Shown piece after piece: positions 1-53,299 of a stretch of 64,000 bases of DNA. Each line of letters starts with the position of its first letter. Position 1 is the first letter of the stretch. The stretch is from the NCBI GenBank assembly GCA_965248175.1, contig OZ252093.1, forward strand, positions 2,782,406 through 2,846,405. Direction: 5' to 3'. The notes under the pieces are model-generated. The model made no database searches, was not told the origin of the DNA, and saw only the letters and a list, made by a program, of their open reading frames with translations. A program made the translations under genes and the position numbers. Origin of the DNA: Rhodothermales bacterium. Lineage in GTDB: Bacteria > Bacteroidota > Rhodothermia > Rhodothermales > VXPQ01.

Positions 1-2803
1 CCGCACGGTCGAGAGCTTGGCGAACCCCGTCCCGGTATGCCTCGTTGGCTGGCAGAAACGACTTGTTCTTGAACCGCTCAAAAATATCCTCGGCCTGAGC
101 GATCTGATCTGAAGTGAGTGTGCGCGGGTCTAGGACCGTCAGACGGGGCAGCTGAGTGATCGTGAGAATCGCGCGGCCCTGCTGCTGTCGAGAGCCGATC
201 CACCAGAAGGAGAGAAGCCCCAAGGTGGTATTTGCCCACAAGACCAGAGGAAATGTCCACTCGTCTTGCTCTGGAATGAAATTGGGCCATGCTCGGCCGC
301 CAATCGCTTTATCTGGTGTGAGGCAGGCGGTGAGGCTTTGCGAATTGATTTGGAAATCGAGGTTAAAATGCAGTCGGGAGGCCACGCGATTCCAGACCTT
401 GACTGCATGATCGTCGCAGCCGGAACGCACCACACCTTCGCGATCGGGCGGAACAACCAAACCCCGTTCGCACTCGGCGTCGTGGCTCCACAGCGCCGGG
501 TATTGCGGCACCCCCTGAACGGGAATGATATCAAAGGGGCCTCGCGGCGATCCATTGCTATTCTTTCCGGAAATGTCGCGGTGATGAAATCCCCGCTTGC
601 CCAGAGAATCAAGGCAAGTTATAGACAGTCGGGCGGAATAGCCCCAAGGCAATCGGAGTATCCCTTCCGCTAAGCCAAGAGCGGTATCAGCAAGCGTGGT
701 TTCGCGGAGGAACGCGCAGCCGCCCTGGCTCAAAGGGGCACGAATGTACGTACCGATAATCTCGCAGTCACCCACGTAGAGCCGCCCTTGTCGATCCTGA
801 GACGTCAGCCGACGCACCGCCCGCGCCATTTCGAAAGCCTCCGTAAGACTGTCCGGCCGATGGGAGAGGTTAACAAACAGGGCCTCTCCACATTTAGAGT
901 CGCATCCAGAGCAACGCTTGGTGGCCACCACAAGAGCCTCGGCCATACCGGTATCGGCTGAAAAAGCCCGGTCCGTCTGGCCCCCATGGGCTGCAATGGT
1001 CAGCACAGTGAGATGCTCGTACTCGCGTTCCAGTAAACTTCGCGCATCTTCCCAGGAACTACCGCTCACAAATGCTGCTGGCAGTACGAGCGCAAGAACA
1101 CCGCCCGGTCTGGTCTTGACATGGGCAAGATCTATGAAATTAGAAGCCAGCCCGGCGTTGCCGTGACCAGCTATGCTTCCACTCTTCTTCAGCTTGGCGC
1201 ATATCCCCTTTAACCGAGCACCCATTTGTCGCTGCTCGTCTTTGCTCGTACTCAACCCGGCAAACGACGGTACCGGGACCGACCCCTCTATACTTTCGTG
1301 ATTACCCGGCCGGGTAAACGGAGGATTCATAATCACCAGATCAGCCGCTCCCCGGGGAAGAATCATGTCCTGACTCCAGTCGGTTTCCACATCCGCACCC
1401 GTGCCTTGCGCCCTCCGAACGCCGGTTCCGAACAGCGACGGTGCATCGTCATATTCAATCAGGTCAAGGGCACCCAAGGCCATGGCCTGCCGTTTTTCCT
1501 TGCTTTGCTGTCCGTAGGGCAGTGTGTGGACGCGGGTGCGCTCAAAGGTCGTACCCGGATGGGTACTCGACAGCATGGATGCGGTAAGATGCGTTGCGGC
1601 GGGCATAATATCGGCGGCAACGAGAACGCGCTCCATCATCTGCCTGTGCAACCCCTGATCGTCGCCGCCTGTTTGCCTATAGCGTAGCGTCAGAGCACGG
1701 TATGTGGCCGAGAGCAAGGTACCGGTGCCACAGGCAAGGTCGGCGAATTGGAGAGAGACAAGAGCGTTCGGATCGGACCAATCTGTTTCCGCATCGAGGC
1801 GAGACACCGCTAACTCAGCGAGCAGAGCCGCCGATGTCGGTAGGGTATAAAACGTGGCAAGAAACTTCCGGTCGGCAATGAGCCGCTGAAACATGCGCCC
1901 GGAGAGGTCATGCAAGGTCGTAGCCCCAAGACCCGCCAGATCGCTGGCTGCCTGAGCAAGACGGTTGAGCACCGCATTCGCCGTACCGGCGGGAATCGGC
2001 CTGAGCAGATCGGAAGCGATATGAAAGATCGGATAGTAATTGATGTGGTCAAGGATATGTTGCCAGCAGGCAAGCAAGCGACTCTTGTTTACATCGTTGG
2101 TACCGGAGCTGCGTAGTTCATCGACAGTGGATATCCCGTGCGCTTCAACGATAGCGGTATGAAAAACGAGCGCGTTGGCGACGATGGCCATGGCCATGCG
2201 CGAGGTCTGCTCGCCGTCCTCCTGGTGTAGGGACCGCGCCATTTTTTCCAGAGTGCGAGCGCCAGCCGTTTCGCGCAGTTTGCCGGCCGCCTCGCCGATA
2301 CTCTGTTCCAGAATATTCGTCCCCTCGGCGAGTAGCCGCTCGGACAGCGAGACATTTTCAATGCATCCCGCGAGATCGTTGACGCTTCCTGCAAGCCAGC
2401 CTGTGGCTGGCCAGCGCACGGCAGCGCCCGCTTCTTGTAGTGAGTACGTGCAATAGCGAAACTCGGCGGCTTCGATATGCTGCTCCAAATCTGCCTGCGG
2501 CGCCCCACTCAGTTCCAGCGGAATTTGCACAGCGATGGTCTGCTCGATCCGATCTCCTGTTTGTGACAGGAATTTGCCCAGACGCGCTTGCGCATCTGCT
2601 TCCACAGTATGTGCCGGTTCAAACTCCGTCTCCAGAACAACCGGGATACCGCCCGGCGGGCGAATAACTATGTCTGGACGAAGAGCGGACTCGCGAAAGA
2701 CATCCTGTTGCTCCACGCCGGTCCGGTCGCGCCACTGCGGATGCTTGCTCCGCAGCACGTTCAGTAACGGAACGTTGAAAGCGACTTCGTTGGTTTTAGG
2801 CAC
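1..2803 (-). CDS. Large gamma-class N6-adenine DNA methyltransferase. The C-terminus runs off the left window edge. Possibly a type IIG/IIL-like nuclease-methylase fusion.
   Basis: This gene is absent from the ORF track because it has no in-window stop codon. My own minus-strand translation is open from the TAA at 2833..2831 down to base 1 (about 934 codons). The first in-frame start candidate is GTG at 2803..2801. SAM motif I 'FADLACGTGTLLSA' lies at about 1720..1745. Catalytic motif IV 'LVIMNPPFTRPG' has NPPF encoded at 1327..1316. The N-terminal 'RPDIVIRPPGGIPVVLETEFEP' is a weak PD-(D/E)xK-like pattern. Confidence 0.8.
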   Translation of the reverse strand, partial: MPKTNEVAFNVPLLNVLRSKHPQWRDRTGVEQQDVFRESALRPDIVIRPPGGIPVVLETEFEPAHTVEADAQARLGKFLSQTGDRIEQTIAVQIPLELSGAPQADLEQHIEAAEFRYCTYSLQEAGAAVRWPATGWLAGSVNDLAGCIENVSLSERLLAEGTNILEQSIGEAAGKLRETAGARTLEKMARSLHQEDGEQTSRMAMAIVANALVFHTAIVEAHGISTVDELRSSGTNDVNKSRLLACWQHILDHINYYPIFHIASDLLRPIPAGTANAVLNRLAQAASDLAGLGATTLHDLSGRMFQRLIADRKFLATFYTLPTSAALLAELAVSRLDAETDWSDPNALVSLQFADLACGTGTLLSATYRALTLRYRQTGGDDQGLHRQMMERVLVAADIMPAATHLTASMLSSTHPGTTFERTRVHTLPYGQQSKEKRQAMALGALDLIEYDDAPSLFGTGVRRAQGTGADVETDWSQDMILPRGAADLVIMNPPFTRPGNHESIEGSVPVPSFAGLSTSKDEQRQMGARLKGICAKLKKSGSIAGHGNAGLASNFIDLAHVKTRPGGVLALVLPAAFVSGSSWEDARSLLEREYEHLTVLTIAAHGGQTDRAFSADTGMAEALVVATKRCSGCDSKCGEALFVNLSHRPDSLTEAFEMARAVRRLTSQDRQGRLYVGDCEIIGTYIRAPLSQGGCAFLRETTLADTALGLAEGILRLPWGYSARLSITCLDSLGKRGFHHRDISGKNSNGSPRGPFDIIPVQGVPQYPALWSHDAECERGLVVPPDREGVVRSGCDDHAVKVWNRVASRLHFNLDFQINSQSLTACLTPDKAIGGRAWPNFIPEQDEWTFPLVLWANTTLGLLSFWWIGSRQQQGRAILTITQLPRLTVLDPRTLTSDQIAQAEDIFERFKNKSFLPANEAYRDGVRQALDRA

Positions 2804-3220
2804 CGGGGTGTTCGGGCCGCCTCGACCCGGTTAGGAAATTGTTGTTTGCAGGATACGCTGTTGAGGGTGCGGTTGTCAAGCGAACGATATGGGGCGTTGT
2901 ATATGGAAATTGAAAAGGGACTTTCTGCTGGGTACGGGCCTGTTTTTCGGACATTCCGCATTTTTTGCCGCTTCACGCAGGCCCAGACAGAGCAGATTCC
3001 GCATCACTTCTTCGTTGAGGAAGGCCAACCGTGCAACCGGCACCATTACAGGACCGCACCTATATTCGGACAACATGCGGTCTGTAAAAAGCCCCCGGAT
3101 CCACCGTTAGACACGGACAAGGGGACCGGAGGAAAGGAAAACAGAGAGAGTTCTCTTTAATTGGAAAGATTTGGATGAGATGAGGATGTAATCTTCGCCA
3201 GGATCGGCTGGTCCATTTGA

Positions 3221-3472
3221 CTAACCGACATGTTGACCATGCGGTTTATAATTTAATACTCTACTGATATATTTTCCTCGCGACTGCCCCGGCGCGGTAA
3301 ACGCCTGCCAAACTTGAGGCGGACACGCAGAATACCGCCATTCAACGCCATCGTGAAAGCGTACATAAATCGTCTCAGTTTCCGGGTCATAGGCCTCGGC
3401 AACGATCCGGCTGGAACCGGTAACAGGAATCCACTCAATCATCTGTGACCTCGTAAGTTTCGCGACATTCAA
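3221..3472 (-). CDS. KTSC-domain small protein
   Basis: 'IEWIPVTGSSRIVAEAYDPETETIYVRFHDGVEWRYSACPPQVWQAFTAPGQSRGKYISRVL' fits the KTSC pattern (S-S-x-I..YD...L.V.F..G..Y.Y..VP..V...). The start is either TTG 3472 (4-nt overlap with the HerA stop) or ATG 3442 (26-nt spacer). Confidence 0.7.
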   Translation of the reverse strand: MNVAKLTRSQMIEWIPVTGSSRIVAEAYDPETETIYVRFHDGVEWRYSACPPQVWQAFTAPGQSRGKYISRVLNYKPHGQHVG

Positions 3473-5232
3473 TCATCCGCAACCTCATAAGTTCCACGCC
3501 ATGCTGTCAGGGCGGGACCAACATCCGGTACTAGAGGTTCTTGACGCCAAGGGGCCAGAGATGGATCGTCGGCAAGTGGCTTCGGGTTGGGTCTATCAAA
3601 GAGTACCCGGGCAGGCAGGATCATAGATTCTCCGCTAACTACTCCCTCACCGGTACGTAGCGATGGCAGAACAGCGGCCAAACCTGCAATTGCATCCGGT
3701 AGCGCCGCTCGAATTGTATTTTGATCCTCAGAGTTCGAAAGGCGCAGGGCCACCAAGGTTCCGCACTGTGCCAGAGCGGTGTCCGGTAGCTCCGTAGGGC
3801 GCTGGGTGACGAGCAAGAGCCCGACACCGTATTTCCTTCCCTCTCTTGCAATTCTATTCGCAGAATCACGAGTCAACATGCTTGCGCTGTCACCAAGGTA
3901 TCGGTGAGCTTCTTCCAATACTACGAGAACAGGGCTGGGGCGCCCAATGCCCGGTCCTCCCAAATTGCAACGGAGCGATATCTCAAAAATCAGATTAAGA
4001 ACGACACCGATCGCGAGATCGGCAGCAGCAGATGGAACTCCGCTGAAATCAAGCACTGATATGGGCCGAACGCCACCAAGCCAATCCTGCATTACTTTGA
4101 CCAACGGATCATCACCTTGCGGCTCACCCTTGGGCTCCTGAAAAAACCGAAGCTGTGGATCAAGAAGGCCGAGACGGAACATATCCGGCATGGTCCCATA
4201 GGTACCGTGAAACGGCCCCTTGTGCGGAGGCTCACTGCCAGGACCATAAGGTTTAAACGTCGCTGACCGCAACGTGTTTGCATCACCGGCGTTGGTCAGA
4301 CAAACAGTTGTCGGGTCCGCCTTGCTTTCGAGGGTCTCGTTGTTTTTGAAATCAAGTTGATGCCAAACCGCCCGAATATCAAACGGTACTGGCGTGTCGG
4401 CTGTAACAGCTGTCGGATCAAGTTTGAGCCAATCGGCAGCCTCTACAAACTTGCGACGAGCAGCAGTCACAAGTTCGGTATAGCGTCCCACGAATGTCGC
4501 ACTGCCCGATGATCCAGAAAAAATGTGCACAATGTCAGCCGCCGGGAGCGCCCAGAACGGGACACGTAACTGATCTCCACCTGTGGCAAGAACGCTTTTG
4601 ACAGAAGCATTACCCTCCAATGCTTGTGCGTACTCACCGTGCGGATCGATAACCACGATATTTGCCGCTTGCCACCCCCCCTCTACGAAGCTCTGCAATA
4701 AAGAAGCGACAACGCTGGTCTTCCCAGAGCCCGTAGAGCCAACGATGGCTGCGTGACGGACGACGAAGCGCGAGATATCCACACAAACTGGAACTTCCTC
4801 GGTAGCAGCTAGACGGCCCAGTCGCAGATTTTGATTGTCGGGGTGCGGGAATACCGACCTAAGCTGACTTGGCGTTGCGAAGTGTACAGGATCATCAAGG
4901 CCAGGATATGAACCCACACCGCGCTGGAAACGCTCCGTGCCGCGATCAATCTCACCAAGTAACTGAACTTGTAGCCAGCGCTCATCGTGTTGAACCGACT
5001 CCGCTGGTTTGATTGGACCAGAAAGTTCAGCAATGCCGACAAGGGAAACCGTGGCGACGAGGTCAACAAGGCCCTGAGGAATTCGAACGAGTGAGCCGAT
5101 CTGACCCACAGGTTGAAGGTGACCACGATAAATTGGTGCTGTCCCTGCGAGGTCAGGATCAAGTGCCACTGTAACAGTAGCCCCTAGAACATGACGTACT
5201 CTCCCAATACACGTTGGATCGCGCTCAGTCAT
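3469..5232 (-). CDS. herA: HerA-like (DUF87) ATPase, the HerA component of a SIR2-HerA defence pair
   Basis: 587 aa. There is an N-terminal HAS-barrel-like segment, Walker A 'VGSTGSGKTS' and Walker B-like 'VLVVLEEAHRY'. The start ATG at 5232 overlaps the SIR2 stop by 8 nt (ATGACTGA). Confidence 0.85.
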   Translation of the reverse strand: MTERDPTCIGRVRHVLGATVTVALDPDLAGTAPIYRGHLQPVGQIGSLVRIPQGLVDLVATVSLVGIAELSGPIKPAESVQHDERWLQVQLLGEIDRGTERFQRGVGSYPGLDDPVHFATPSQLRSVFPHPDNQNLRLGRLAATEEVPVCVDISRFVVRHAAIVGSTGSGKTSVVASLLQSFVEGGWQAANIVVIDPHGEYAQALEGNASVKSVLATGGDQLRVPFWALPAADIVHIFSGSSGSATFVGRYTELVTAARRKFVEAADWLKLDPTAVTADTPVPFDIRAVWHQLDFKNNETLESKADPTTVCLTNAGDANTLRSATFKPYGPGSEPPHKGPFHGTYGTMPDMFRLGLLDPQLRFFQEPKGEPQGDDPLVKVMQDWLGGVRPISVLDFSGVPSAAADLAIGVVLNLIFEISLRCNLGGPGIGRPSPVLVVLEEAHRYLGDSASMLTRDSANRIAREGRKYGVGLLLVTQRPTELPDTALAQCGTLVALRLSNSEDQNTIRAALPDAIAGLAAVLPSLRTGEGVVSGESMILPARVLFDRPNPKPLADDPSLAPWRQEPLVPDVGPALTAWRGTYEVADD

Positions 5233-6412
5233 ATTCCTTTCTGTTCACTTCCGTCCGAGACTCCCCAATAGCGTCCCTGAGCAACTCCTTCAAAACACCG
5301 TCACCGCTTTGTTCACGTGTCGTGCTTCGAGCCAAATATCTGGCAAGATTACAGAAGTTTCGGAGGGCAAACTGTTCATTCTCCCAAATATCCAGTGGCG
5401 CATTGTCCGGTTTATCCCAATCCGCACGGACACCGCCAATAATTGCCTCACGACCAGAGACCACTTGGATGTTAGGGATGGTAACTGCACGGTCAGCCAA
5501 TATATCCGGAATCTCCGAAAAGCAGAAGGCTATAAACTCGGAACGCTCGCGGCGCACTGCAGCATTGAAAATTTGCTCATTGAGATGTTCGTCACCGAAC
5601 GAATATCCAGAGATCAGCATAAGCGTCTCTGGCTGATAGAGTGCCCTTCTCAATCGGTCCTGAAGTACGACAAAGGGGACACGCCGCGATTCCTCGTACT
5701 TTGCATCAGACGGATAAATGGCCGCCGCAAGACCTTCAGGAACCGGGTGGCCTAGTCGGACAATTTGCCGGTCTCCTTTCCAAGACCAGTTCACGGAGCC
5801 GTGCAGTTTCCAAAGCCTGACGAAAAACGCAGGAACCACTTCAGCATCCGGTCCTGGCAATCCCTCGACCAGTTCCGTATGAAATCTGGCTTCCAGAGAT
5901 CCTACAAAACCATCGAAGTAGGGCACACGCATTTCCTCAAGAGCAGTCTCTAACAAAAGGTCATAGTTTACCGTGAATAATTCGACAGGTAGATGGTAAT
6001 TGGCGCGTGCTGCCCAGACGGCCAAACACATTGCGGCAGTTGGATCCACACCATCAACGCCATCAACTTTCAGCGCCCTGACAATCGCCTGACAGACAGC
6101 GGCATCCAATTTCTCCGCATCCCTCGCCGTCAGGTCATTCACTGTTTCTTCGCCGGAGATAAGTGCCGAAATGCGACGGAGGCGGCTTAACGCCGCCTCG
6201 AGGTTTCGGCCCGTTAGTTGGCGCTGGAAGGCGGCATGTTCGTCTTCTTGGATATCTTCCAGAACATACTGCTCAAGCGCCTTCACATCAGGTAGGCCAC
6301 ACGCCTTCCCAACCCCGGCACCTAGGAACGCACATACGTGACGAGACCGAGTAGCGAGCTTAGTGCCAAGAGACGTGACAAAACTCAATGGGTTGTGATC
6401 TGGCATGTGCAC
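5225..6412 (-). CDS. SIR2-family (SIR2_2) NADase-like protein, the SIR2 component of a SIR2-HerA defence pair
   Basis: 395 aa with 'FLGAGVGKACGLP', 'FTVNYDLLLE' and 'KLHGSVNW', which are the hallmark SIR2_2 motifs. It lies directly upstream of, and overlaps, herA. The start is GTG 6412 or ATG 6406. Confidence 0.85.
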   Translation of the reverse strand: MHMPDHNPLSFVTSLGTKLATRSRHVCAFLGAGVGKACGLPDVKALEQYVLEDIQEDEHAAFQRQLTGRNLEAALSRLRRISALISGEETVNDLTARDAEKLDAAVCQAIVRALKVDGVDGVDPTAAMCLAVWAARANYHLPVELFTVNYDLLLETALEEMRVPYFDGFVGSLEARFHTELVEGLPGPDAEVVPAFFVRLWKLHGSVNWSWKGDRQIVRLGHPVPEGLAAAIYPSDAKYEESRRVPFVVLQDRLRRALYQPETLMLISGYSFGDEHLNEQIFNAAVRRERSEFIAFCFSEIPDILADRAVTIPNIQVVSGREAIIGGVRADWDKPDNAPLDIWENEQFALRNFCNLARYLARSTTREQSGDGVLKELLRDAIGESRTEVNRKEYD

Positions 6413-6600
6413 TCTGCTGGCAAGAAGCGCCGGCTCATTGGTTCCTTACTGAATACATGTCCACCCGGCGGAAAGTAACTCACCGAACGAACGCTAAAGA
6501 ACATGGGTCAGTTTCGCATCGGACGATTCCTAGAGACGGTTTGTCCTGATTGGACAGATTTTTGCAAACCATTTCTCCATTACTATCATGCGTCACATCC

Positions 6601-8322
6601 TTACAACCCGAACAGTTTGGTTGCTTGTTTAACCAGATTCTCGGTTCTGGTTTTTATCTGTTCGACACCCCAACTTTGAGAATTAGCCAAATCTTCATTT
6701 ATACTTAGGCCATTTTTATATCCAACCCATCGGCCTTGTGCATCAGTACGATCCCGCTTTTCCTCAAAGCCCTTGTTTCCAAGAGCACTATTGAATCCGG
6801 AAATGGTCAGATTTCCCAGTTTGTGGACATACGTCTGTTGAGCCTCCTTCGCCTTGTGCTCATCCCCATCAGCGATCATGGTCATCCATGGTTGAGGTAT
6901 GTTTTCACCCTGTGGAAAGATATGCTCAATGGTCCAGACAGACCTTCCCTTTCCCCCAACGGCCCATAGGTCAACCCAAGTTTCTTTGGTCATTTCTTGT
7001 TCAGCCAAGGCACATAGAACAAATCGGGTGACACCTGAATTTTCCACGTAAATTGGCCCTTCCAATTTGCTCTGGAATATATCATCAGATGCAGATACAG
7101 CCACGAGTTCCTCCTTAATAGCCTGCGTAACAGCTATTCCATGCAGGCTACTTATTTTATCTATAATCGTCATGAAAAGTCGAGTTAAATCCCGTGTAGG
7201 CGGCGTGTCTGTGAGATTACGACGGACAAAGAAACGAACCAGAAACGCAACCGTCGAGGCTAATTGCTTGTTGTCCAGTTGCAAATCTTCCTTACGGACA
7301 AGCAGGTAAAGCATCAGCAGATAGGATGGCGCTCCTTGGATGCGTGCGAGATTCTTGAGCGGTATCTCAAGTCCGTTGAGGGCATCGTCCTGATTGCGAG
7401 AGAGAATCAATGAGTACTTTTGACCAGCGATGCCGATTTTTGTCAGGCAATCCTTGGCGTCATCGTTAATAAGCTTCTCGTATATCTGAATCAGGTTGGA
7501 TCGGGTAGCCACGGGCACCTTATACAACGCTTTCAGTTCATCCTTAAAAGCGTTGTAGTATTGGCGGAAGAAACGCTCCTGAGTGCCATAGTCATCGCCT
7601 AAGTAGTTCAGCAAGCGGTTCCAGCGCTCATAATAGTGATCCACCTTGCCGGACTCAATGGATTCCAGTCTTGCCAAGAGCTTGTTCTTGATCAGATCAA
7701 CCGCCGTTAATGGCATACCTCTATTGTTCAGCGATTCGAACAGGGTGTAGGCATCGGCATGACTCGCCACCTCAATTTTGACCAAGCAAGCATAGCTGAC
7801 CTTTTCCAGAAATTCCAGGATGGTCCCAAGCCCGTCGCCCCCCTCATCTGTCATTTCATTGATACGGCCCTGGAAATATCGGTAGGCACGGAAAATTTTG
7901 CGGTTCCCCGCATAAGCCGGACGATCGCTCCCACTGATAATCCCCGTCTCAGCAAGAACGGCCCGGTAATCATTCTGGTTGTTGTTCTGAATCTGTGGTA
8001 TCAGGCGGATCTGTTTATCGCCTTTCTTCAAAATCAGCTTACGCTTTAAGTTGGTTTGCTCGACAAGCTGTTCAGCATCCAAATTGGATTCATGGCTTTT
8101 CAAGGCATGATAGACCGAAGCAAAAAGCAGCGAGAGCGTCATCAGTCGCTGCTGGCCATCGACTAGTTCCAGTTTCTGAACCAATAGCGCGTCTTCCGAC
8201 TGATTGATACAGATAATCGAACCGAGGAAATAGCCGGGGTCGTTATCAAGAACATCGTCAAACAGGCTTTCCCACTGATTCTTCCCCCAAGTGTATTCGC
8301 GCTGGTATCGAGGGATTGTATA
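6601..8322 (-). pseudogene. GmrSD-like type IV restriction endonuclease (DUF262 N-terminal plus DUF1524/His-Me C-terminal). This is the body of the gene, separated from its first 21 codons by an IS insertion.
   Basis: The frame stays open upstream of the track's TTG 8184 and reads '...YTIPRYQREYTWGKNQWESLFDDVLDNDPGYFLGSIICI...LVDGQQRL' (DUF262 signature). No ATG/GTG/TTG start precedes it before the in-frame TGA at 8391..8389, inside the IS. The C-terminal 'WTIEHIFPQ...HKLGNLTISGFNSALGNK' is DUF1524-like. Confidence 0.85.
8315..8322. repeat. Target-site duplication (left copy)
   Basis: ATTGTATA lies immediately outside the left IR and is identical to 10898..10905. Confidence 0.9.
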
Positions 8323-8345
8323 GGGAATTATATACGAAAGTAACC
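8323..8345. repeat. Terminal inverted repeat (left) of the IS1595-family transposon
   Basis: GGGAATTATATACGAAAGTAACC is the exact reverse complement of 10875..10897. Confidence 0.9.
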
Positions 8346-8354
8346 GCTTTCGGA

Positions 8355-8564
8355 TCAGAGCATATCCTCCAACGGCGGCGGTTTTTTGTCATCGGGCGAT
8401 ACCGCACCCCGATCCTTCTTTATCGGCGTTACGATGCACTTCGCCAGTATCTCTGGCGTCGTGTCGATCTTCAAAACGCGCGTCTCCGGGCGACCTCGCT
8501 TTTTCGATTCGGGTTTGGGCTTTTTCGGTTTCATGGTCTTCGCCTTAGGTCTGATATTGTTCAC
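8355..8564 (-). CDS. Small lysine/proline-rich basic protein with an AT-hook-like 'KKRGRPE' core (function unknown)
   Basis: 69 aa from GTG 8564 (GTGA overlap with the endonuclease stop), or 59 aa from ATG 8534. It ends 9 bp from the left IR. No recognisable fold. Coding status is supported mainly by the stop/start overlap. Confidence 0.45.
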   Translation of the reverse strand: MNNIRPKAKTMKPKKPKPESKKRGRPETRVLKIDTTPEILAKCIVTPIKKDRGAVSPDDKKPPPLEDML

Positions 8565-9160
8565 TTACCCCTTTGCCGTCGTTCTCTCACGATCTCTTTC
8601 ATCAGCGTAAACGGTTCACTGTAGAATGGTGGTTCTAAGGGCCACGAAACAGGAACACTTGTCGCCAATAGGTGCATCCTCTGGTAATCCGAATACTTCC
8701 GATGTTTGGAACGCGGCAGATGCTCATTTCTGATAAATCCAAAGTGCCATTTATGGTCAAACTCAAAGAGATTAATCGCCAGTATATCGAATTTTCCTGC
8801 CAGCAGGCACGTTGTCTGCAACGTGGTTCCGTTGGGCAGTGTAACAGATCGTCGGTCGCTCGCATCGACTTGGCATCGTCCGAAATAGTCGCCGTTGTTA
8901 GTTCTCACCGAACGGGTTTGCAACGACTTCACCTCGACAATGATCGGTTGGCCTTGGTATTCGAAACTGAAGTCTGCTGGCCGTGATCTGTCGTGATCGT
9001 CGTATCGAATTAGTTTGTGAATTCGGGCATCTGAAAATACGGTGCGCTGTAACTTGTACTCAGCCAAAAACCCAATCAGTATCCCTCGGATGCTTGGACG
9101 CTCTGCAAGTACAACGTTCAAGTCATCGTAGGAAATACCCCAGTCTTCCAGAATTCCCAT
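8561..9160 (-). CDS. Type II restriction endonuclease (PD-(D/E)xK fold), cargo of the IS
   Basis: 199 aa. 'PADFSFEYQGQPIIVEVKS' gives a D...E-V-K catalytic pattern. The start overlaps the methyltransferase stop (TAATG at 9162..9158). Confidence 0.65.
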   Translation of the reverse strand: MGILEDWGISYDDLNVVLAERPSIRGILIGFLAEYKLQRTVFSDARIHKLIRYDDHDRSRPADFSFEYQGQPIIVEVKSLQTRSVRTNNGDYFGRCQVDASDRRSVTLPNGTTLQTTCLLAGKFDILAINLFEFDHKWHFGFIRNEHLPRSKHRKYSDYQRMHLLATSVPVSWPLEPPFYSEPFTLMKEIVRERRQRGK

Positions 9161-9873
9161 TATGGACAGCGGCGTCGCGGACTTCGCCCGTTGGTTTTGA
9201 TGAATACGAGAAAGTAAGAATGATTTTTCCTGGCGTGTTCCTGTCGAAGGATCCGACTGACGGCGGGTTTATTGGTGCGGACTAATACGAACAAGTCTTT
9301 TGCGTAGAACCCTATCGACTCGTATTCATTGATCAACTCGACATGTGTGAGATTTTGCAGATTGGCACTTACTTCATCTTGACACTTGACAATGAACACG
9401 CCAAAATCGCGCAGAACTCTAAACGCCTCGGCACCAGCCTTGAAATACAGGTCCAATACAGCCGCGTGATACTTCGGCACATTATCCTCGATGGTCTTTC
9501 CGTTCGAGTAGATTTCCCTAAATGCAGAATAACTGCCGCTGCCTGCTAAATGAGACTGCTTTTTGCGATACAGCCCCTCCATGTATGGGGGATCAAGTAC
9601 CACACAGTCGATTGAGCCGTCGTCGTAAGGCAAATCTCGGCAATCCACCCCCGTCTTTATATCGGTCGCAAGCAAGTTGTAATCGTCTGCGTTGACATTC
9701 TTCCAGAATATCCCCTTGCCGTAGGTTACGTCGGCAATCGTTGAACCAACAGGTACGTGCAAATCGAAGATTTTAGGAAACAGCGCATCGTTGCAGCCTA
9801 AATGTGCACTACATATAATATCGCTGGTAGCGATACCATCTGGAGATTTTCTTTGTACAGCCACACCCATCAT
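9160..9873 (-). CDS. DNA methyltransferase (N6-adenine or N4-cytosine, DPPY type), cargo of the IS
   Basis: 237 aa. Motif I-like '[12 protein letters not shown]' is followed by motif IV '[10 protein letters not shown]'. The start ATG overlaps the transposase stop (ATGA at 9873..9870). Confidence 0.8.
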
Positions 9874-10802
9874 GCAATCAGGTCAGCATACCGGAGGCGT
9901 TTCTGATCCATGCCCCGGACTATTGCCGACATTTGGTCAAGAGTATCAAGTCCGCGAATGTTGTGCCGACCGGAGAACTCGTTGATGTACCGATGGAGAT
10001 GCTTGACGCTCACGTGGTGGTAAACACCCGTGATTCCCCGTTTCAACGTCGCCCAAAAACTCTCGATACCGTTCGTGTGGACTCGTCCACGAACGTACTC
10101 GCTGGCACTGTGTTTGACCGTCTCGTGGGCGTAGAAGTGTTTCAAGCTCTTGTATGCCTTATGGTCATCCGTGAAGACCGTTTCGCCATGCTGGACGCTC
10201 TCATGCACGAAGCCAGCGAGAGTTTCACCCGGTTCATAGCCAAGTGGACGCGCCTTGATCTTGCCGCCTCGCTCCCTGGCTCCCATGACGGTAGCCTTAC
10301 CCACCGTTCCACGTCCGAACGACCGCTTGTGCGCGTGTTTATTCCGTTTCTTGCCACCCACATACGTTTCGTCTACCTCGACGGTACCGACGAAAAGAGG
10401 GGCGTTCTCCACGAAAGCCTCGCGGACACGCTGGATCAGGTGCCACGCGGCTTTCTGCGTGATACCCAATTCCCGGCTGATCTTCATACTCGACACGCCT
10501 TTCAGGTTGGTCGTTGCCATATAGGTAACGATTGCCCATGCCTGAAAGCCCAGTTTGCTCGACTCCATTACCGTGCCCTTCTTGACGGAGAAGTGCTTCC
10601 GGCAATCCTTGCAACGCAGTGGCATGGTCGGGTGGGTACTGCGAACGGCCCGCATGCAACCGCAGTGGGGGCAGACAGGACCATCAGGCCAGCGTTGCTT
10701 TTCAAACCAGCGTTCGGCTGTATCGTTGTCGGGAAACATACGAAGAAGTTGAACAATGGTCAAGCCGGTTCTTTCGGAACGTCCGGGTGCGCGTTGTGCC
10801 AT
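9870..10802 (-). CDS. IS1595-family transposase (N-terminal zinc ribbon plus DDE domain)
   Basis: 310 aa. Motifs are 'CPHCG...[22 protein letters not shown]', '[10 protein letters not shown]', '[10 protein letters not shown]' and '[14 protein letters not shown]'. It is homologous along its length to the second copy at 51962..52933. Confidence 0.9.
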
Positions 10803-10874
10803 TTTCTTGCCTGGTTGCTTTCTGATTACGGTTACTATAATACCACATAATAATCAAAAAGTCAAGTGAATAAT

Positions 10875-10897
10875 GGTTACTTTCGTATATAATTCCC
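10875..10897. repeat. Terminal inverted repeat (right) of the IS1595-family transposon
   Basis: GGTTACTTTCGTATATAATTCCC is the exact reverse complement of 8323..8345. Confidence 0.9.
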
Positions 10898-10905
10898 ATT
10901 GTATA
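10898..10905. repeat. Target-site duplication (right copy)
   Basis: ATTGTATA lies immediately outside the right IR. Confidence 0.9.
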
Positions 10906-10968
10906 TACCACATTCGCTTCGATGTCGAAGAGCTGAGAGATTGGATAGTTATTTACGGATTTAATCAT
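10898..10968 (-). pseudogene. Detached 5' fragment (start codon plus 23 codons) of the GmrSD-like gene
   Basis: ATG 10968..10966 reads 'MIKSVNNYPISQLFDIEANVVYT' and runs straight into the IS right end. It joins in frame to '...IPRYQREYTW' at 8314 once the IS and one TSD copy are removed (71 + 1714 nt = 1785 = 3 x 595). Confidence 0.85.
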
Positions 10969-11169
10969 ATAACACCTCAAGAGTGATATTTCTATAGTTT
11001 GCGACGGAATGCTTCTTTTTTCCCTGCCATGATGTCGATGAAATCGGTGTTCCACTAACCATCGAAAATGGGCGTATCCGCTAAAACTGTGTAAGCGAAC
11101 ATACCTAATATCTGAAGCGACCCCCATATCCTGCAAGACACCTCATTTAGGCAGGGTATCAAGCTCCCC

Positions 11170-11715
11170 CTACTCCACCTCCACTATCACCTCGATCTCC
11201 ACGGCGATGTTGTCCGGCAGCGAGCCCATGCCAATGGCCGATCGCGCATGGCGGCCTCTGTCGCCGAAGACCTCAACCATCAGGTCCGAAAAACCATTGA
11301 TGACCGCAGGATGGGCTCCGAATTCCGGGGAAGCGTTCACCATGCCCAATGCCTTGACGATGCGCCGGACGCGGCTCAGATCGCCCAGTTCGTCCTTCAT
11401 CGTGGAAATTAACTGGATTCCCACCAGACGGGCCGCCTCGTACCCTTCCTCGACGGACAAATCCGCACCGACCTTGCCGATCACCAGCGTCCCGTCAGGA
11501 CGCAACGGCCCTTTCCCGGACAGGTACAGCAGGTCCCCCGTTCGCACGGCGTTGACGTAATTGGCGACGGGCGAGGACGCCTTGCGCAGCGTAATGCCCA
11601 GTTCGGCGAGGCGCGCCTCCGGGTTGTAGCCCTGATCCTGCGCAGAAGAGGTTGTGGCGGAAAACGCCAGCACGAAGGGAACGATCATGGCAAATACCCT
11701 GTGTTTGGTCGGCAT
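11170..11715 (-). CDS. RidA/YjgF family protein with signal peptide
   Basis: 181 aa. The YjgF-like core is 'LLYLSGKGPLRPDGTLV...ARSAIGMGSLPDNIAVEIEVIVEV'. There is an N-terminal hydrophobic leader. Confidence 0.75.
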   Translation of the reverse strand: MPTKHRVFAMIVPFVLAFSATTSSAQDQGYNPEARLAELGITLRKASSPVANYVNAVRTGDLLYLSGKGPLRPDGTLVIGKVGADLSVEEGYEAARLVGIQLISTMKDELGDLSRVRRIVKALGMVNASPEFGAHPAVINGFSDLMVEVFGDRGRHARSAIGMGSLPDNIAVEIEVIVEVE

Positions 11716-50607: not shown

Positions 50608-51226
50608 CGCAGAGGTGGTTCGGGTTGATTGGACAGATTTTGGCGGAATTCAAGGTGTAATGTTGCGACCTTGTTCCGACTCAATCAACCGGACGAGACC
50701 CATGGCGAAGGGCTTTCTCTACCTCGTGGCCGTGATCGACTGGCACAGCCGCAAGGTACTGGCGCACCGGCTCTCGAACACGCTGGATGCCTCCTTCTGC
50801 GTCGAAGCGATGGAAGAAGCCATTGCCCGCTACGGCGCCCCGGAAGGCTTCAACACCGACCAGGGAGCGCAGTTTACTTCGGAAGTGTTCACGGGTGCGC
50901 TCAAGGCGCACGGCGTGCGCATCTCTATCTCTATGGACGGCAAAGGCCGCTGGCTCGACAACGTGTACGTGGAGCGCCTATGGCGCAGCCTCAAGCAGGA
51001 AGAGGTCTACCGGCATGCGTACGAGACGGTGGCCGAGGCCAGGAAGGGGATTGCAGACTACCTGCGTTACTTCAACGAAGAGCGTCCTCACCAGGGACTT
51101 GACAACCGAACCCCCGATGACGTATTATACAAACGAAAGCCGCTGCCCATAGCGGCATAACCCGACGCGGCGCTACACTTAAAAACGCGAAAAAAACTGT
51201 CCAGTTTTTTCGGACCATTTCTGGAC
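50608..51226 (+). mobile_element. Internally deleted IS3-family element (remnant)
   Basis: It contains only the C-terminal DDE/rve part of OrfB. The right end '...AAAAAACTGTCCAGTTTTTTCGGACCATTTCTGG' resembles IS3/IS911-type termini. The left boundary 'GGTGGTTCGGGTTGATTGGACAGATTTT' is a diverged inverted match. The exact ends are uncertain. Confidence 0.6.
50615..51160 (+). pseudogene. IS3-family transposase OrfB, C-terminal fragment
   Basis: 'PMAKGFLYLVAVIDWHSRKVLAHRLS...FNTDQGAQFTS...DNVYVERLWRSLKQEEVY...YNEERPHQGL' covers the D, D and E regions. OrfA and the N-terminal part of OrfB are missing. The sequence upstream of PMAKG is out of frame. Confidence 0.85.
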
Positions 51227-51951
51227 CGCAAGGACCTGAGGGGCCACAGGGACCGCAAGGACCTCCCGGGGTTTTGCCAACTTATATTACTATAAATAGA
51301 GATGCTAATGAATCATTTGAACCGTCCGGCATCACAATAGATGACGATTATAATTTCCTTATAGCAACAAAACTTATAACAGGGTATGGGCTGGACGATA
51401 GGGTATACATATATCCATATGCAAGAGTAGATTTTGTCAGCATCTTTTTTTTAACAGGCGTAGGAAACTTTAGAGGTTTAGATTGGCATAATGATATAGC
51501 ATATGCTTTGGGGGACGATCCAGACGACGTTCATAGATATGATATGTCTACCAATACACAACTGACTGTATATAACATACCTGACCCATACGACGATCCA
51601 AGAGGTATCGCTTTGTTATCAAACGGTAACGTATTGATAGTTGATGTGGTTTATAATAGATTGATGGAGTTTAATACAACAGGAACAATAATTGATAGTG
51701 ACGTACTACACATAAACAATAATAATGCGTCAGGTTTATCGGTAGATTCGAGTGGTAATAGATATGTTACAGATTCATCAGATGCTCTGATATATAAATA
51801 TAACAGTTCTAATGTATTCCAAAATACCATATCTTTACATTCAGAAAACACAAACCCACAAGGTATAAAAATTAAAGGCAACGTAATGCATGTATTAGAC
51901 ACTACATCAGATACATTAACAGATAGGATTTATTTTTACCTACTACCATAA
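51223..51951 (+). pseudogene. 5'-truncated collagen-like (G-X-Y) / NHL-type beta-propeller protein gene, low GC
   Basis: The frame is open from the IS3 end and reads 'GPQGPEGPQGPQGPPG', then NHL-like blades ('PRGIALLSNGNVLIVDVVYNRLMEF', 'ASGLSVDSSGNRYVTDSSDALIYKY'). The track starts it at TTG 51274. No credible native start or signal peptide is present. Confidence 0.6.
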
Positions 51952-53009: not shown

Positions 53010-53059
53010 AAACGAAATACAAAAAAGAACGCAAAAGGATGTACCCAGCGTGTTAGAGA

Positions 53060-53299
53060 GACGGCCCGCAAGGGTCCGATGCAGACGCCCCGGAGCGTGG
53101 TTTGCAGGGGTTCCCTGCCCGATTCCGAATCGATTTGAGACACGACAGACAACGACATGGAAGGTCCGGCATTAGACGCACCCCCCGGCGGGTTTGTTCG
53201 ACACCCCCGAAATCCCGGCTAACCGGCATCCGCCAGTAGCCCGGTCATCCGGCGCCGGAATGCACTGTGTTCCATCGAGCAGGGAATCCGGGCGACCTG
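53060..53299. repeat. Direct repeat copy 2 (decayed duplicate; the ybbR ATG is changed to ACG)
   Basis: It has the same orientation as copy 1. 'ggagcatgatttgcaggg' in copy 1 corresponds to 'ggagcgtggtttgcaggg' here. Confidence 0.85.

What the first reader, a model, noticed from the sequence alone, without database searches (positions are those of the whole stretch)
6601..10968. The R-M-carrying IS has split a GmrSD-like type IV restriction gene, and the ancestral ORF can be rebuilt exactly
Seen directly: the DUF262 signature '...YTIPRYQREYTW...DGQQRL' at 8314 and downstream has no usable start codon. The missing N-terminus 'MIKSVNNYPISQLFDIEANVVYT' sits on the other side of the IS (10968..10898). 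Deleting 8323..10897 plus one TSD copy joins them in frame as '...VVYT|IPRYQREYTW...', giving 71 + 1714 = 1785 nt (594 codons plus the stop). No other lesions are visible, so the insertion looks recent. Inference: GmrSD/DUF262-DUF1524 enzymes are modification-dependent nucleases. A newly arriving methyltransferase can be lethal in their presence. An insertion that knocks out the type IV gene while delivering the methylase would resolve that conflict in one step, or would be strongly selected afterwards. This would be a concrete example of one defence system displacing another through a mobile element.
Basis: partly seen in the sequence, partly recalled or inferred. Interest (0 to 1): 0.8.

Follow-up and report, generated by a model that had tools for sequence, protein, structure and literature searches.

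The report
Restriction-carrying jumping gene splits defence gene
A 2.6-kb insertion sequence that carries its own NruI/Sbo13I-type restriction-modification genes has cleanly split a GmrSD-family nuclease gene in a bacterial defence island. The event is real and exactly reversible on paper, but nothing found here shows that a methylation conflict drove it.

Summary
Window 8323-10897 is a 2,575-bp IS1595-family transporter IS with perfect 23-bp inverted repeats and an 8-bp target duplication. Removing it restores a 594-aa DUF262/DUF1524 (GmrSD-family) ORF that aligns without gaps across the junction with intact 598-aa homologues.

The cargo is now identified as an NruI/Sbo13I-family Type IIP restriction-modification pair. 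The methylase is 65% identical to M.Sbo13I and the nuclease 44% identical to R.Sbo13I. The nuclease has a PD-(D/E)XK fold.

A transposase about 90% identical at the nucleotide level carries a BglII-like pair in exactly the same slot. More distant relatives with the same repeats carry a methylase-HNH fusion.

The adaptive story is not supported:
- The closest intact GmrSD homologues (80% identity) sit inside BREX operons beside the PglX methyltransferase (adenine-specific in characterised BREX systems).
- The same restriction-modification pair lies 0.9 kb from an intact DUF262 nuclease gene in another genome.
- No related IS copy examined sits in a type IV gene.
- No characterised GmrSD-family enzyme is known to target m6A or m4C (my own knowledge).

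Chance insertion into a dispensable, AT-richer defence-island gene is the simpler reading. This is a new member of a known kind.

The parts
8323..10897 (-). Complete IS1595-family transporter IS (tIS), 2,575 bp. All four ORFs are co-directional with the interrupted gene.
   Evidence: Perfect 23-bp terminal inverted repeats, flanking 8-bp target duplication, IS1595 transposase.
10875..10897 (-). Left inverted repeat (transposase-proximal end), GGGAATTATATACGAAAGTAACC
   Evidence: The identical 23-mer ends related elements in 11 loci of Dehalococcoidia, Chloroflexota and Rhodothermales MAGs.
8323..8345 (+). Right inverted repeat
10898..10905 (-). Target-site duplication, copy 1 (TATACAAT on the minus strand)
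   Evidence: Read directly.
8315..8322 (-). Target-site duplication, copy 2 (TATACAAT on the minus strand)
   Evidence: Read directly.
10837..10865 (-). Sigma-70-like promoter inside the IS left end (TTGACT, 17 nt, TATTAT, with TG before the -10 hexamer), upstream of tnp
   Evidence: Consensus scan. The same sequence block is kept in the related IS of L028/L029. This is a consensus match only.
9870..10802 (-). Transposase, 310 aa: N-terminal zinc ribbon plus IS1595 DDE domain
   Evidence: Pfam PF12760 and PF12762. NCBIfam NF033547 at 171.7 bits against a cut-off of 75. Best plasmid hits are at most 45% identical, so this is a new IS.
9160..9873 (-). DNA methyltransferase, 237 aa, M.NruI/M.Sbo13I family (SAM-binding motif before DPPY). 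Its start overlaps the tnp stop (ATGA).
   Evidence: Pfam N6_N4_Mtase just above cut-off. 65% identity to M.Sbo13I of pSB13. Family description in PMC2890505.
8561..9160 (-). Type IIP restriction endonuclease, 199 aa, R.NruI/R.Sbo13I family, PD-(D/E)XK fold. Its start overlaps the methylase stop by 1 nt.
   Evidence: 44% identity to R.Sbo13I. AlphaFold model with pLDDT 93. Foldseek top hits are all PD-(D/E)XK nucleases: I-Ssp6803I, Hjc, RecU, R.SwaI, HincII. In the alignment D62 is invariant, and D53, E75 and K77 are at least 90% conserved. It lies beside a homologous methylase in every context examined.
8355..8534 (-). Small basic ORF, 59 aa from ATG 8534 (69 aa from GTG 8564), with core RGRPETRVLKIDTTPEILAKCIVTPIKK. 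It belongs to the IS backbone rather than the cargo. Function unknown.
   Evidence: About 80% nucleotide identity to the equivalent position in L028/L029, although the restriction-modification cargo there is different. Weaker matches in L019 and L008. No Pfam, NCBIfam or PADLOC hit.
8539..9869 (-). Exchangeable cargo slot: the segment that differs between this IS and its about 90%-identical relative. It holds exactly the methylase and nuclease genes.
   Evidence: blastn of the IS against L028/L029. IS positions 30-1028 are 89.8% identical and positions 2360-2482 are 79.7% identical, with nothing in between.
10898..10968 (-). 5' fragment of the GmrSD-family gene: codons 1-23 plus 2 nt (MIKSVNNYPISQLFDIEANVVYT)
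6601..8314 (-). 3' fragment of the GmrSD-family gene: third base of codon 24 to the stop. It keeps DGQQR and the DUF1524 TIEHIFP...GNL motifs.
   Evidence: Called as a 527-aa product from TTG 8184 in public annotation (P0001).
5225..6412 (-). SIR2-like defence protein (neighbour; forms a SIR2-HerA pair with the next gene)
   Evidence: Pfam SIR2_2. PADLOC SIR2 E = 1.7e-105.
3469..5232 (-). HerA-like ATPase (neighbour; partner of the SIR2-like gene)
   Evidence: Pfam DUF87 and HerA_C. PADLOC HerA E = 1.1e-127.

Best explanation
**Shown**
An autonomous IS1595-family transporter IS transposed into codon 24 of a GmrSD-family (DUF262-DUF1524) nuclease gene. It made the family's usual 8-bp target duplication. 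Its order is: left repeat, promoter-like site, transposase, methylase, nuclease, small basic ORF, right repeat.

The gene lies in a low-GC SIR2-HerA defence island of a Rhodothermales-like bacterium. It is inactivated, because only a product lacking the first 67 residues could be made.

The cargo is a complete NruI/Sbo13I-family Type IIP restriction-modification pair. It is wired as one operon with the transposase: the tnp stop overlaps the methylase start, and the methylase stop overlaps the nuclease start.

The cargo sits in a slot that holds other restriction-modification modules in close relatives:
- a BglII-like pair behind a transposase gene about 90% identical at the nucleotide level;
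- a methylase-HNH fusion in Chloroflexota elements with the same repeats.

**Inferred**
- The restriction-modification pair gives the host a new restriction barrier.
- It gives the IS a selectable, addictive passenger, because its loss would expose unmethylated sites to the nuclease.
- Having the methylase first in the operon favours protection before cutting.
- The landing site is most simply explained by tolerance of insertions in dispensable, AT-richer, horizontally acquired defence-island DNA. Selection from a methylation conflict is not needed.
For: **Structure.** Repeats, duplication and reconstruction. Domains. Colinearity with intact homologues.

**Cargo identity.**, with PMC2890505. 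Nuclease fold and motifs. The methylase and nuclease genes lie side by side in 8 other loci.

**Cargo exchange.** L028/L029 share the tnp gene at 89.8% and the small-ORF block at 79.7% nucleotide identity, and have repeats with 1-2 mismatches. They carry an SPPY-type methylase and a BglII-like nuclease instead. Methylase-HNH cargo occurs in L008, L012/L011 and L007/L009.

**Neutral placement.**
- Island GC is 45-56% against about 60% for the host.
- AT-rich octamers are 2.6-fold enriched in the target gene.
- Three of the four target duplications found for elements with this inverted repeat (the window IS, L004, L008, L012/L011) are AT-rich: TATACAAT, TTTGCAAA and ATACTAAT, against CTTCCGAG.
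- Relatives land in or beside other defence genes (Hachiman, DUF262, SLFN-like) and in ordinary loci.

**Against a conflict.** The closest intact homologues sit in BREX operons beside PglX. An intact pair of the same family lies beside an intact DUF262/DUF1524 gene in L014.
Against: - No uninterrupted allele from a close relative was recovered, so the time and the population frequency of the insertion are unknown.
- One independent metagenome contig (L001) starts 4 nt inside the target duplication next to the IS. This suggests the insertion is shared between samples and may be fixed, which fits either drift or selection.
- The recognition site and the methylated base of this pair are not known.
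- The substrate of this GmrSD subfamily is not known, so a conflict cannot be excluded.
- The sample of related insertion sites is small (about 8), and the AT-rich target bias is modest.
- In its BREX-embedded homologues the nuclease is always paired with a 940-aa AAA_15 ATPase that is absent here. The gene may therefore already have been a non-functional orphan.
Confidence: 0.8

Rival explanations
1. Conflict resolution. The IS-borne methylase creates m6A or m4C marks that the resident GmrSD-like nuclease attacks. Only cells in which the incoming element had disrupted the nuclease gene survived, or the disrupted allele was strongly selected afterwards.
For: - The insertion does remove the only GmrSD-family gene seen in the island while delivering a methylase.
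- The principle is experimentally established for other pairs: the PcaRCI pair against PcaRCII (PMC8989522) and McrBC against incoming methylases (PMC2993543, title and abstract only).
- The insertion appears to be shared by a second sample.
Against: - 9 of 9 contexts of the closest intact homologues are BREX operons with the PglX methyltransferase immediately upstream.
- The same restriction-modification family sits next to an intact DUF262/DUF1524 gene in L014.
- None of the other related IS copies interrupts a type IV gene.
- As far as I know, characterised GmrSD-family enzymes target hmC, glucosyl-hmC or 5mC, or sense phosphorothioate, not m6A or m4C.
- There is no informative sequence link to any characterised member.
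Confidence: 0.1
2. The GmrSD-like gene was already a dead or useless orphan. It had been separated from the AAA_15 ATPase partner that accompanies all its closest homologues, so the insertion is neutral.
For: - In 9 of 9 homologue contexts the gene follows a roughly 940-aa AAA_15/SMC_N ATPase with a gap of under 10 nt.
- In the window the upstream neighbour is a RidA/YjgF-like gene 200 bp away, and no ATPase is present.
Against: - Both halves of the ORF are free of stops and frameshifts, and all conserved motifs are kept. This argues against long neutral decay.
- As far as I know, single-gene GmrSD-family systems such as BrxU and GmrSD fusions work alone.
Confidence: 0.15
3. Assembly artefact: the IS was placed inside the gene by misassembly of a repeat.
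For: The source is a metagenome-derived long contig. A second contig from another sample breaks within a few nucleotides of the IS edge.
Against: - A perfect 8-bp duplication directly outside perfect inverted repeats, with an exact in-frame rejoining, is the signature of transposition and not of a chimeric join.
- The IS repeat occurs only at these two positions in the window.
Confidence: 0.01

Closest known systems
Transporter IS (tIS) of the IS1595 family, e.g. tISCpe8 and MTnSag1 (lincomycin resistance)
   Same: An IS1595-type transposase with a zinc ribbon, short terminal inverted repeats and a target duplication on insertion (8 bp here). Passenger genes lie inside the repeats, downstream of tnp (features here).
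   Different: The cargo here is a complete Type II restriction-modification pair plus a conserved small basic ORF, not an antibiotic-resistance or mobilisation gene. The transposase is at most 45% identical to plasmid-borne IS1595 transposases. The cargo slot holds different restriction-modification modules in close relatives.
Transposon-like restriction-modification units with inverted repeats and 8-bp target duplications (Furuta, Abe and Kobayashi 2010, PMC2853133)
   Same: Restriction-modification genes bounded by inverted repeats and inserted with an 8-bp duplication. One Neisseria unit holds a degenerate transposase-like gene, and the allelic site holds IS1016. That paper also cites the IS1595 family paper for IS-linked restriction-modification and solitary methylase genes.
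   Different: Here the transposase is intact and operon-linked to the methylase. The target is a defence gene, and a sister element shows cassette exchange.
NruI / Sbo13I Type IIP restriction-modification systems (TCG^CGA; Zhu et al. 2010, PMC2890505)
   Same: The methylase is 65% and the nuclease 44% identical to the Sbo13I proteins of plasmid pSB13. The methylase has the gamma-like motif order with DPPY. The nuclease has the DD/PD...EVK catalytic motif and an N-terminus ([15 protein letters not shown]) close to that of NruI (MGFLEDWDLSYDEIN).
   Different: The genes here are co-directional and overlapping with no controller gene. In NruI and Sbo13I they are in opposite orientation, and Sbo13I has a C gene. 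The carrier is an IS rather than a small plasmid. The recognition site and methylated base were not determined here.
GmrSD-family type IV enzymes (GmrSD, BrxU, SspE)
   Same: An N-terminal DUF262 domain with DGQQR and a C-terminal DUF1524 His-Me nuclease domain. The closest homologues are embedded in BREX loci. From my own knowledge, BrxU is also BREX-embedded.
   Different: Only remote sequence similarity to solved members (SspE E = 0.004, and BrxU not detected). The best PADLOC models are 'Orf5' and HEC-06. The homologues are paired with an AAA_15 ATPase. The substrate is unknown.
PcaRCI restriction-modification pair against the PcaRCII methyl-dependent nuclease (Birkholz et al. 2022, PMC8989522)
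   Same: A mobile restriction-modification system arrives in a genome that already encodes a nuclease of a modification-dependent family, and the resident nuclease ends up switched off.
   Different: In that study the conflict was demonstrated, and it is resolved by promoter methylation. Here the nuclease gene is physically interrupted by the carrier element, and no conflict has been shown.

Membership tests
IS1595-family insertion sequence / transporter IS | Transposase with an N-terminal zinc ribbon and an IS1595 (ISXO2-like) DDE domain | tested here: met
   PF12760 E = 9e-11 and PF12762 E = 1.6e-38. NF033547 at 171.7 bits against a cut-off of 75.
IS1595-family insertion sequence / transporter IS | Terminal inverted repeats | tested here: met
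   23/23 complementary, none expected by chance.
IS1595-family insertion sequence / transporter IS | 8-bp target-site duplication | tested here: met
   TATACAAT on both sides. Relatives also show 8-bp duplications.
IS1595-family insertion sequence / transporter IS | Passenger genes unrelated to transposition located inside the repeats (definition of a tIS) | tested here: met
   The methylase, the nuclease and the small ORF lie between tnp and the right repeat.
IS1595-family insertion sequence / transporter IS | Demonstrated mobility (an empty site, or copies at other sites) | tested here: inconclusive
   No identical second copy and no empty site were found. Relatives about 90% identical lie at other sites with their own duplication. 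The rebuilt target matches intact homologues.
GmrSD-family type IV restriction enzyme (DUF262-DUF1524) | N-terminal DUF262/GmrSD_N domain with the DGQQR motif | tested here: met
   PF03235 E = 3e-37 over residues 11-237. LVDGQQRL is present.
GmrSD-family type IV restriction enzyme (DUF262-DUF1524) | C-terminal DUF1524/GmrSD_C His-Me finger nuclease domain | tested here: met
   PF07510 E = 5e-16 over residues 433-586. TIEHIFPQ and HKLGNLT are invariant among the seven aligned sequences (this protein and six homologues).
GmrSD-family type IV restriction enzyme (DUF262-DUF1524) | Cleaves DNA only when it carries a base modification | not testable with these tools
   No informative similarity to a characterised enzyme. 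Needs biochemistry.
GmrSD-family type IV restriction enzyme (DUF262-DUF1524) | Intact, expressible gene | tested here: not met
   The gene is interrupted after 71 nt. The first downstream in-frame start gives a product lacking 67 residues.
NruI/Sbo13I Type IIP restriction-modification system | Methylase of the M.NruI/M.Sbo13I subgroup (gamma-like motif order, motif IV DPPY) | tested here: met
   65% identity over 222 residues to the pSB13 methylase. The ADVTYGKG motif precedes LDPPY in the sequence. Family definition in PMC2890505.
NruI/Sbo13I Type IIP restriction-modification system | Nuclease homologous to R.NruI/R.Sbo13I with the DD/PD-X21-EVK catalytic motif | tested here: met
   44% identity over 191 residues. 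YDDHDR...VEVK is conserved. PD-(D/E)XK fold matches.
NruI/Sbo13I Type IIP restriction-modification system | Recognition of TCGCGA with blunt cleavage, and protective methylation of that site | not testable with these tools
   TCGCGA is not notably avoided (11 observed against 15.1 expected in 64 kb) and is absent from the IS. This is uninformative for a recent arrival.
Epigenetic conflict between an incoming methylase and a resident modification-dependent nuclease | The resident nuclease attacks DNA carrying the mark made by the incoming methylase | not testable with these tools
   The circumstantial evidence points the other way: BREX/PglX co-residence and an intact pair of the same family beside an intact DUF262 gene in L014.

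The most novel reading that the evidence does not exclude
This clade of IS1595 transporter ISs (termini starting GGGAATTA) may be a dedicated shuttle for restriction-modification modules. It would have an exchangeable cargo slot that is translationally coupled to the transposase. Its insertion into the GmrSD-like gene would have been selected because m6A or m4C written by the cargo methylase turns the chromosome into a substrate of that nuclease. One transposition event would then both install a new defence system and delete the incompatible resident one.
Probability: 0.1. Interest if true: 0.75.

Novelty: new member of a known kind. Interest (0 to 1): 0.4.

Why it matters
**What the case provides.** It is a clean, fully resolved example of a defence system travelling inside a minimal transposable element and landing in another defence gene. 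The ancestral gene can be recovered exactly, so a methylase against type IV test can be built directly from sequence.

**The finding of wider use.** The same IS backbone carries interchangeable restriction-modification cassettes: an NruI-like pair, a BglII-like pair and a methylase-HNH fusion. This points to a simple route by which restriction systems move and swap between genomes and within defence islands.

**Why interest stays moderate.**
- Transporter ISs, mobile restriction-modification units and methylase/type IV conflicts are all already described.
- The specific conflict proposed here has no support so far.

Tried and rejected
1. **Exact-match scans.** Scans of the JGI metagenome collection for the 23-nt repeat and for the 24-nt empty site both returned nothing. 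I could therefore make no insertion-site survey and recover no uninterrupted allele from that source.
2. **Look-ups of flanking proteins.** Exact look-ups of the RidA-like and HerA ORFs, meant to reach sister strains, found nothing on record. This is probably because gene callers chose other start codons or because the source genome is not indexed.
3. **Co-occurrence in E. coli.** I tested complete E. coli genomes for both the Sbo13I-like pair and the BREX-type GmrSD homologue. The counts were 1 genome and 0 genomes, which is uninformative.
4. **TCGCGA avoidance in the window.** The observed/expected ratio is 0.73, ranked 30th of 64 palindromes, so there is no signal.
5. **Library scans of ORF199.** Direct Pfam, NCBIfam, PADLOC and PDB sequence searches gave no hits. 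Identification needed a plasmid tblastn, the literature and a structure model.
7. **Rfam, tRNA and tandem-repeat scans around the locus.** These found nothing relevant.
8. **Repeat-only loci.** L005 and L010 hold solo or rearranged ends with no transposase and were not pursued. L003 was listed in the same scan and not pursued; tblastn with the transposase found no match in any of the three.
9. **Assembly artefact.** I considered and rejected this, because the repeats and the duplication are the signature of transposition.

Full report
**1. The observation**

Read on the minus strand, window 6400-11300 shows an ATG at 10968 followed by 71 nt of coding sequence (MIKSVNNYPISQLFDIEANVVYT). It is followed directly by GGGAATTATATACGAAAGTAACC. 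The reverse complement of that 23-mer lies at 8323-8345, and the pair is 100% complementary. The 23-mer occurs nowhere else in the window at up to 3 mismatches, and no match occurred in 100 shuffles.

The octamer TATACAAT lies directly outside both repeats, at 10898-10905 and 8315-8322. Removing 8323-10897 and one octamer joins 71 nt to 1,714 nt. The result is 1,785 nt: an uninterrupted ORF of 594 codons plus a stop.

**2. The interrupted gene**

The rebuilt protein has full-length GmrSD_N (DUF262, E = 3e-37) and GmrSD_C (DUF1524, E = 5e-16) domains. Its best PADLOC models are 'Orf5' and HEC-06. SspE and the type IV model score much lower.

A search of 5.8 billion proteins returned the publicly called 527-aa truncated product (P0001). 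It also returned a large set of intact 598-aa homologues at about 80% identity from many phyla. Six of them align with the rebuilt protein without any gap at the junction, and the DGQQR and TIEHIFP...GNL motifs are kept. The reconstruction is therefore right, although no uninterrupted allele of this exact lineage was found.

Downstream of the IS the first in-frame start is TTG at 8184. Any product would lack 67 residues, including the IPRYQREYTW motif.

The neighbouring genes are a SIR2-like gene and a HerA-like gene (PADLOC E = 1.7e-105 and 1.1e-127) and a KTSC-domain ORF. This block has 45-56% GC, against about 60% beyond 11.5 kb. It is a horizontally acquired defence island.

The host carries T9SS-sorted proteins and TonB-dependent receptors. 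Its MenD is closest, among named sequences, to Rhodothermales MAGs.

**3. The inserted element**

All four ORFs run in the same direction as the interrupted gene.
- Transposase: 310 aa, with the IS1595 zinc ribbon and DDE domain, and above the NCBIfam IS1595 cut-off. Plasmid-borne IS1595 transposases are at most 45% identical, so this is a new IS of that family.
- Methylase: 237 aa. It passes the Pfam N6_N4_Mtase threshold only narrowly.
- ORF199: no match in Pfam, NCBIfam, PADLOC or PDB sequences.
- A small basic ORF of 59-69 aa with no library match.

The link that identified the cargo came from a tblastn against plasmids. The methylase and ORF199 match adjacent genes on Shigella boydii pSB13, at 65% and 44% identity. 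pSB13 is a 5.4-kb mobilisable plasmid of Shigella boydii. It matches the 5.4-kb resident plasmid of S. boydii C13 from which the Sbo13I system was cloned.

Zhu et al. describe NruI and Sbo13I as TCG^CGA isoschizomers. They describe their methylases as a gamma-like subgroup with DPPY in motif IV, and their nucleases as having a PD/DD-X21-EVK site. M.NruI makes m6A and M.Sbo13I probably makes m4C (PMC2890505). The N-terminus of ORF199 ([15 protein letters not shown]) resembles that of NruI (MGFLEDWDLSYDEIN).

Independent support comes from three results:
- An alignment of 35 homologues shows that D62 is invariant. D53, E75 and K77 are conserved in at least 90% of the sequences.
- An AlphaFold model has pLDDT 93.
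- The best Foldseek hits in the PDB are all PD-(D/E)XK nucleases: I-Ssp6803I, Hjc, RecU, R.SwaI and HincII.

ORF199 homologues lie beside a homologous methylase in every context examined. Two are fused to an HTH domain, which recalls controller proteins.

**4. Architecture and relatives**

The tnp stop overlaps the methylase start (ATGA), and the methylase stop overlaps the nuclease start. A promoter-like site (TTGACT, 17 nt, TATTAT) lies just inside the left repeat. No terminator-like site on the minus strand separates the last ORF from the right end.

The exact 23-mer repeat ends elements in 11 loci of Dehalococcoidia, Chloroflexota and Rhodothermales MAGs. Their transposases are only 48-56% identical, and the elements bounded on both sides have 8-bp duplications. 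Their cargo is a methylase-HNH fusion, or in L004 a small membrane protein.

The 90%-identity cluster of the transposase holds a 317-aa member found on two contigs, L028 and L029. These elements compare with the window IS as follows:

| Segment of the window IS | Match in L028/L029 |
|---|---|
| Positions 30-1028 (tnp) | 89.8% nucleotide identity |
| Positions 2360-2482 (start of the small basic ORF) | 79.7% nucleotide identity |
| Terminal repeats | 1-2 mismatches |
| Segment in between | Unrelated: a 301-aa SPPY methylase and a BglII-family nuclease (PF09195, E = 6e-35) |

The exchanged segment matches the methylase and nuclease genes to within a few nucleotides. The small basic ORF (core RGRPETRVLKIDxTPExLAKCIVTPIKK) belongs to the backbone.

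Other relatives carry the NruI-like pair:
- L013: an intact but divergent IS with 32-bp repeats that also start GGGAATTA.
- L014 and L019: decayed copies with transposase remnants.
- L015-L018: the pair without a transposase.

A cargo-less sister IS lies in the same window at 51957-53009. It is 1,053 bp long and its transposase is 55% identical.

**5. Why it landed there**

Several results bear on that idea.

(a) The closest intact homologues all lie inside type 1 BREX operons, in 8 of 8 places for P0020 and 1 of 1 for P0002. The order is BrxC, PglX, a 940-aa AAA_15 ATPase, the GmrSD homologue, a 776-784-aa protein with no Pfam match in the position of PglZ (an assignment made from gene order, from my own knowledge of BREX), and BrxL. 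In characterised BREX systems PglX is an N6-adenine methyltransferase that marks the host chromosome (my own knowledge). This subfamily therefore appears to coexist with adenine methylation.

(b) In L014, intact methylase and nuclease genes of the same family lie 0.9 kb from an intact DUF262/DUF1524 gene of another subfamily.

(c) The other insertion sites of the clade are varied:
- seven codons before the stop of a Hachiman HamB-like helicase gene, with duplication TTCATTTG;
- beside an SLFN/AlbA-like gene;
- between efflux and sulfotransferase genes;
- inside a glycine-reductase operon;
- in DNA without recognisable genes.

None is in a type IV gene. Several are in defence islands.

(d) Three of the four target duplications of elements with this repeat are AT-rich. 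AT-rich octamers are 2.6-fold enriched in the target gene relative to its length.

(e) As far as I know, characterised GmrSD-family enzymes act on hmC, glucosyl-hmC or 5mC, or sense phosphorothioate. This protein has only remote similarity to any solved member.

Taken together, the simpler reading is a chance insertion that was tolerated in dispensable, AT-richer island DNA. The conflict reading is not excluded, because neither the methylated motif nor the nuclease's substrate is known. I put it at about 0.1.

A further possibility is that the nuclease gene was already an orphan, since the ATPase partner seen in all close homologues is absent here. The lesion-free ORF argues against long disuse.

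**6. Mechanism, with what is shown and what is inferred**

Shown:
- transposition with an 8-bp duplication, and inactivation of the target gene;
- cargo identity by homology and by fold;
- operon-like gene overlaps;
- cassette difference between near-identical backbones.

Inferred:
- The restriction-modification pair is active and recognises TCGCGA or a related site.
- Methylase-first expression protects the chromosome on arrival.
- The pair benefits the IS as an addictive and selectable passenger.
- Cassette exchange happens by recombination at the conserved flanks.

**7. Comparison with what is known**

- Transporter ISs are an accepted class, so far restricted to the IS1595 and IS66 families (TnCentral preprint). 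tISCpe8 and MTnSag1 are the studied IS1595 examples.
- Furuta et al. 2010 described restriction-modification units bounded by inverted repeats with 8-bp duplications. They also cited the IS1595 family paper for IS-linked restriction-modification and solitary methylase genes.
- Conflict between incoming methylases and methyl-dependent nucleases, and its resolution, is documented (PMC8989522; PMC2993543).

This locus is therefore a new member of known kinds. Two features are worth recording: a defence gene is the target, and the restriction-modification cassette is interchangeable.

**8. Verdict**

Novelty: new member of a known kind. Interest: 0.4.

Noticed in passing
window 51957-53009: A second, cargo-less IS1595-family IS of 1,053 bp. 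Its repeats are GGGAATTACCCGGAAAGGTTGAC (19 of 23 complementary), its flanking direct repeat is AAACGAA, and its 323-aa transposase is 55% identical to that of the restriction-modification-carrying IS.
   Followed up: partly
window 51250-51950 and 50615-51160: A patch of 34-38% GC holds an NHL-repeat ORF (51274-51951) directly beside the second IS. An IS3-type rve integrase fragment lies at 50615-51160, with a 44-nt imperfect inverted match at 53029-53072. This looks like nested or decayed mobile DNA.
   Followed up: no
window 1-3220: About 3.2 kb at 56-60% GC has no ORF longer than 157 aa on either strand. It also has no tRNA, no Rfam family at gathering score and no tandem or CRISPR-like repeats. 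It adjoins the KTSC/HerA end of the defence island and is unexplained.
   Followed up: partly
L020-L027 and L032, positions about 5170-9797: The closest intact GmrSD homologues always follow a roughly 940-aa AAA_15/SMC_N ATPase gene, with a gap of under 10 nt. The two-gene module sits between pglX and the 776-784-aa gene in the pglZ position of type 1 BREX operons. Near-identical copies occur in Nitrosomonas, Oleidesulfovibrio, Syntrophotalea, Klebsiella and Limisphaerales, so the module is very mobile.
   Followed up: partly
L028 1-3112 and L029 123-3845: A sister tIS of 3,723 bp carries a BglII-like restriction-modification pair, a 141-aa ORF and a 76-aa ORF. It is inserted 7 codons before the stop of a Hachiman HamB-like helicase gene. 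The left flank of L029 and the right flank of L028 share the duplication TTCATTTG, while the right flank of L029 differs. This suggests recombination between copies or a chimeric low-coverage contig.
   Followed up: partly
L015 4937-5193: A GC-rich array of imperfect direct repeats (about six units at 35-37-bp spacing) lies directly upstream of the transposase-less NruI-like methylase-nuclease pair.
   Followed up: no
L001 position about 135 (equivalent to window about 8187): The independent metagenome contig of the same locus differs by a 1-nt deletion (gcgctatggttc against gcgctattggttc). It also starts 4 nt inside the target duplication. Coverage is only 2x, so the deletion is probably a read error.
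   Followed up: no
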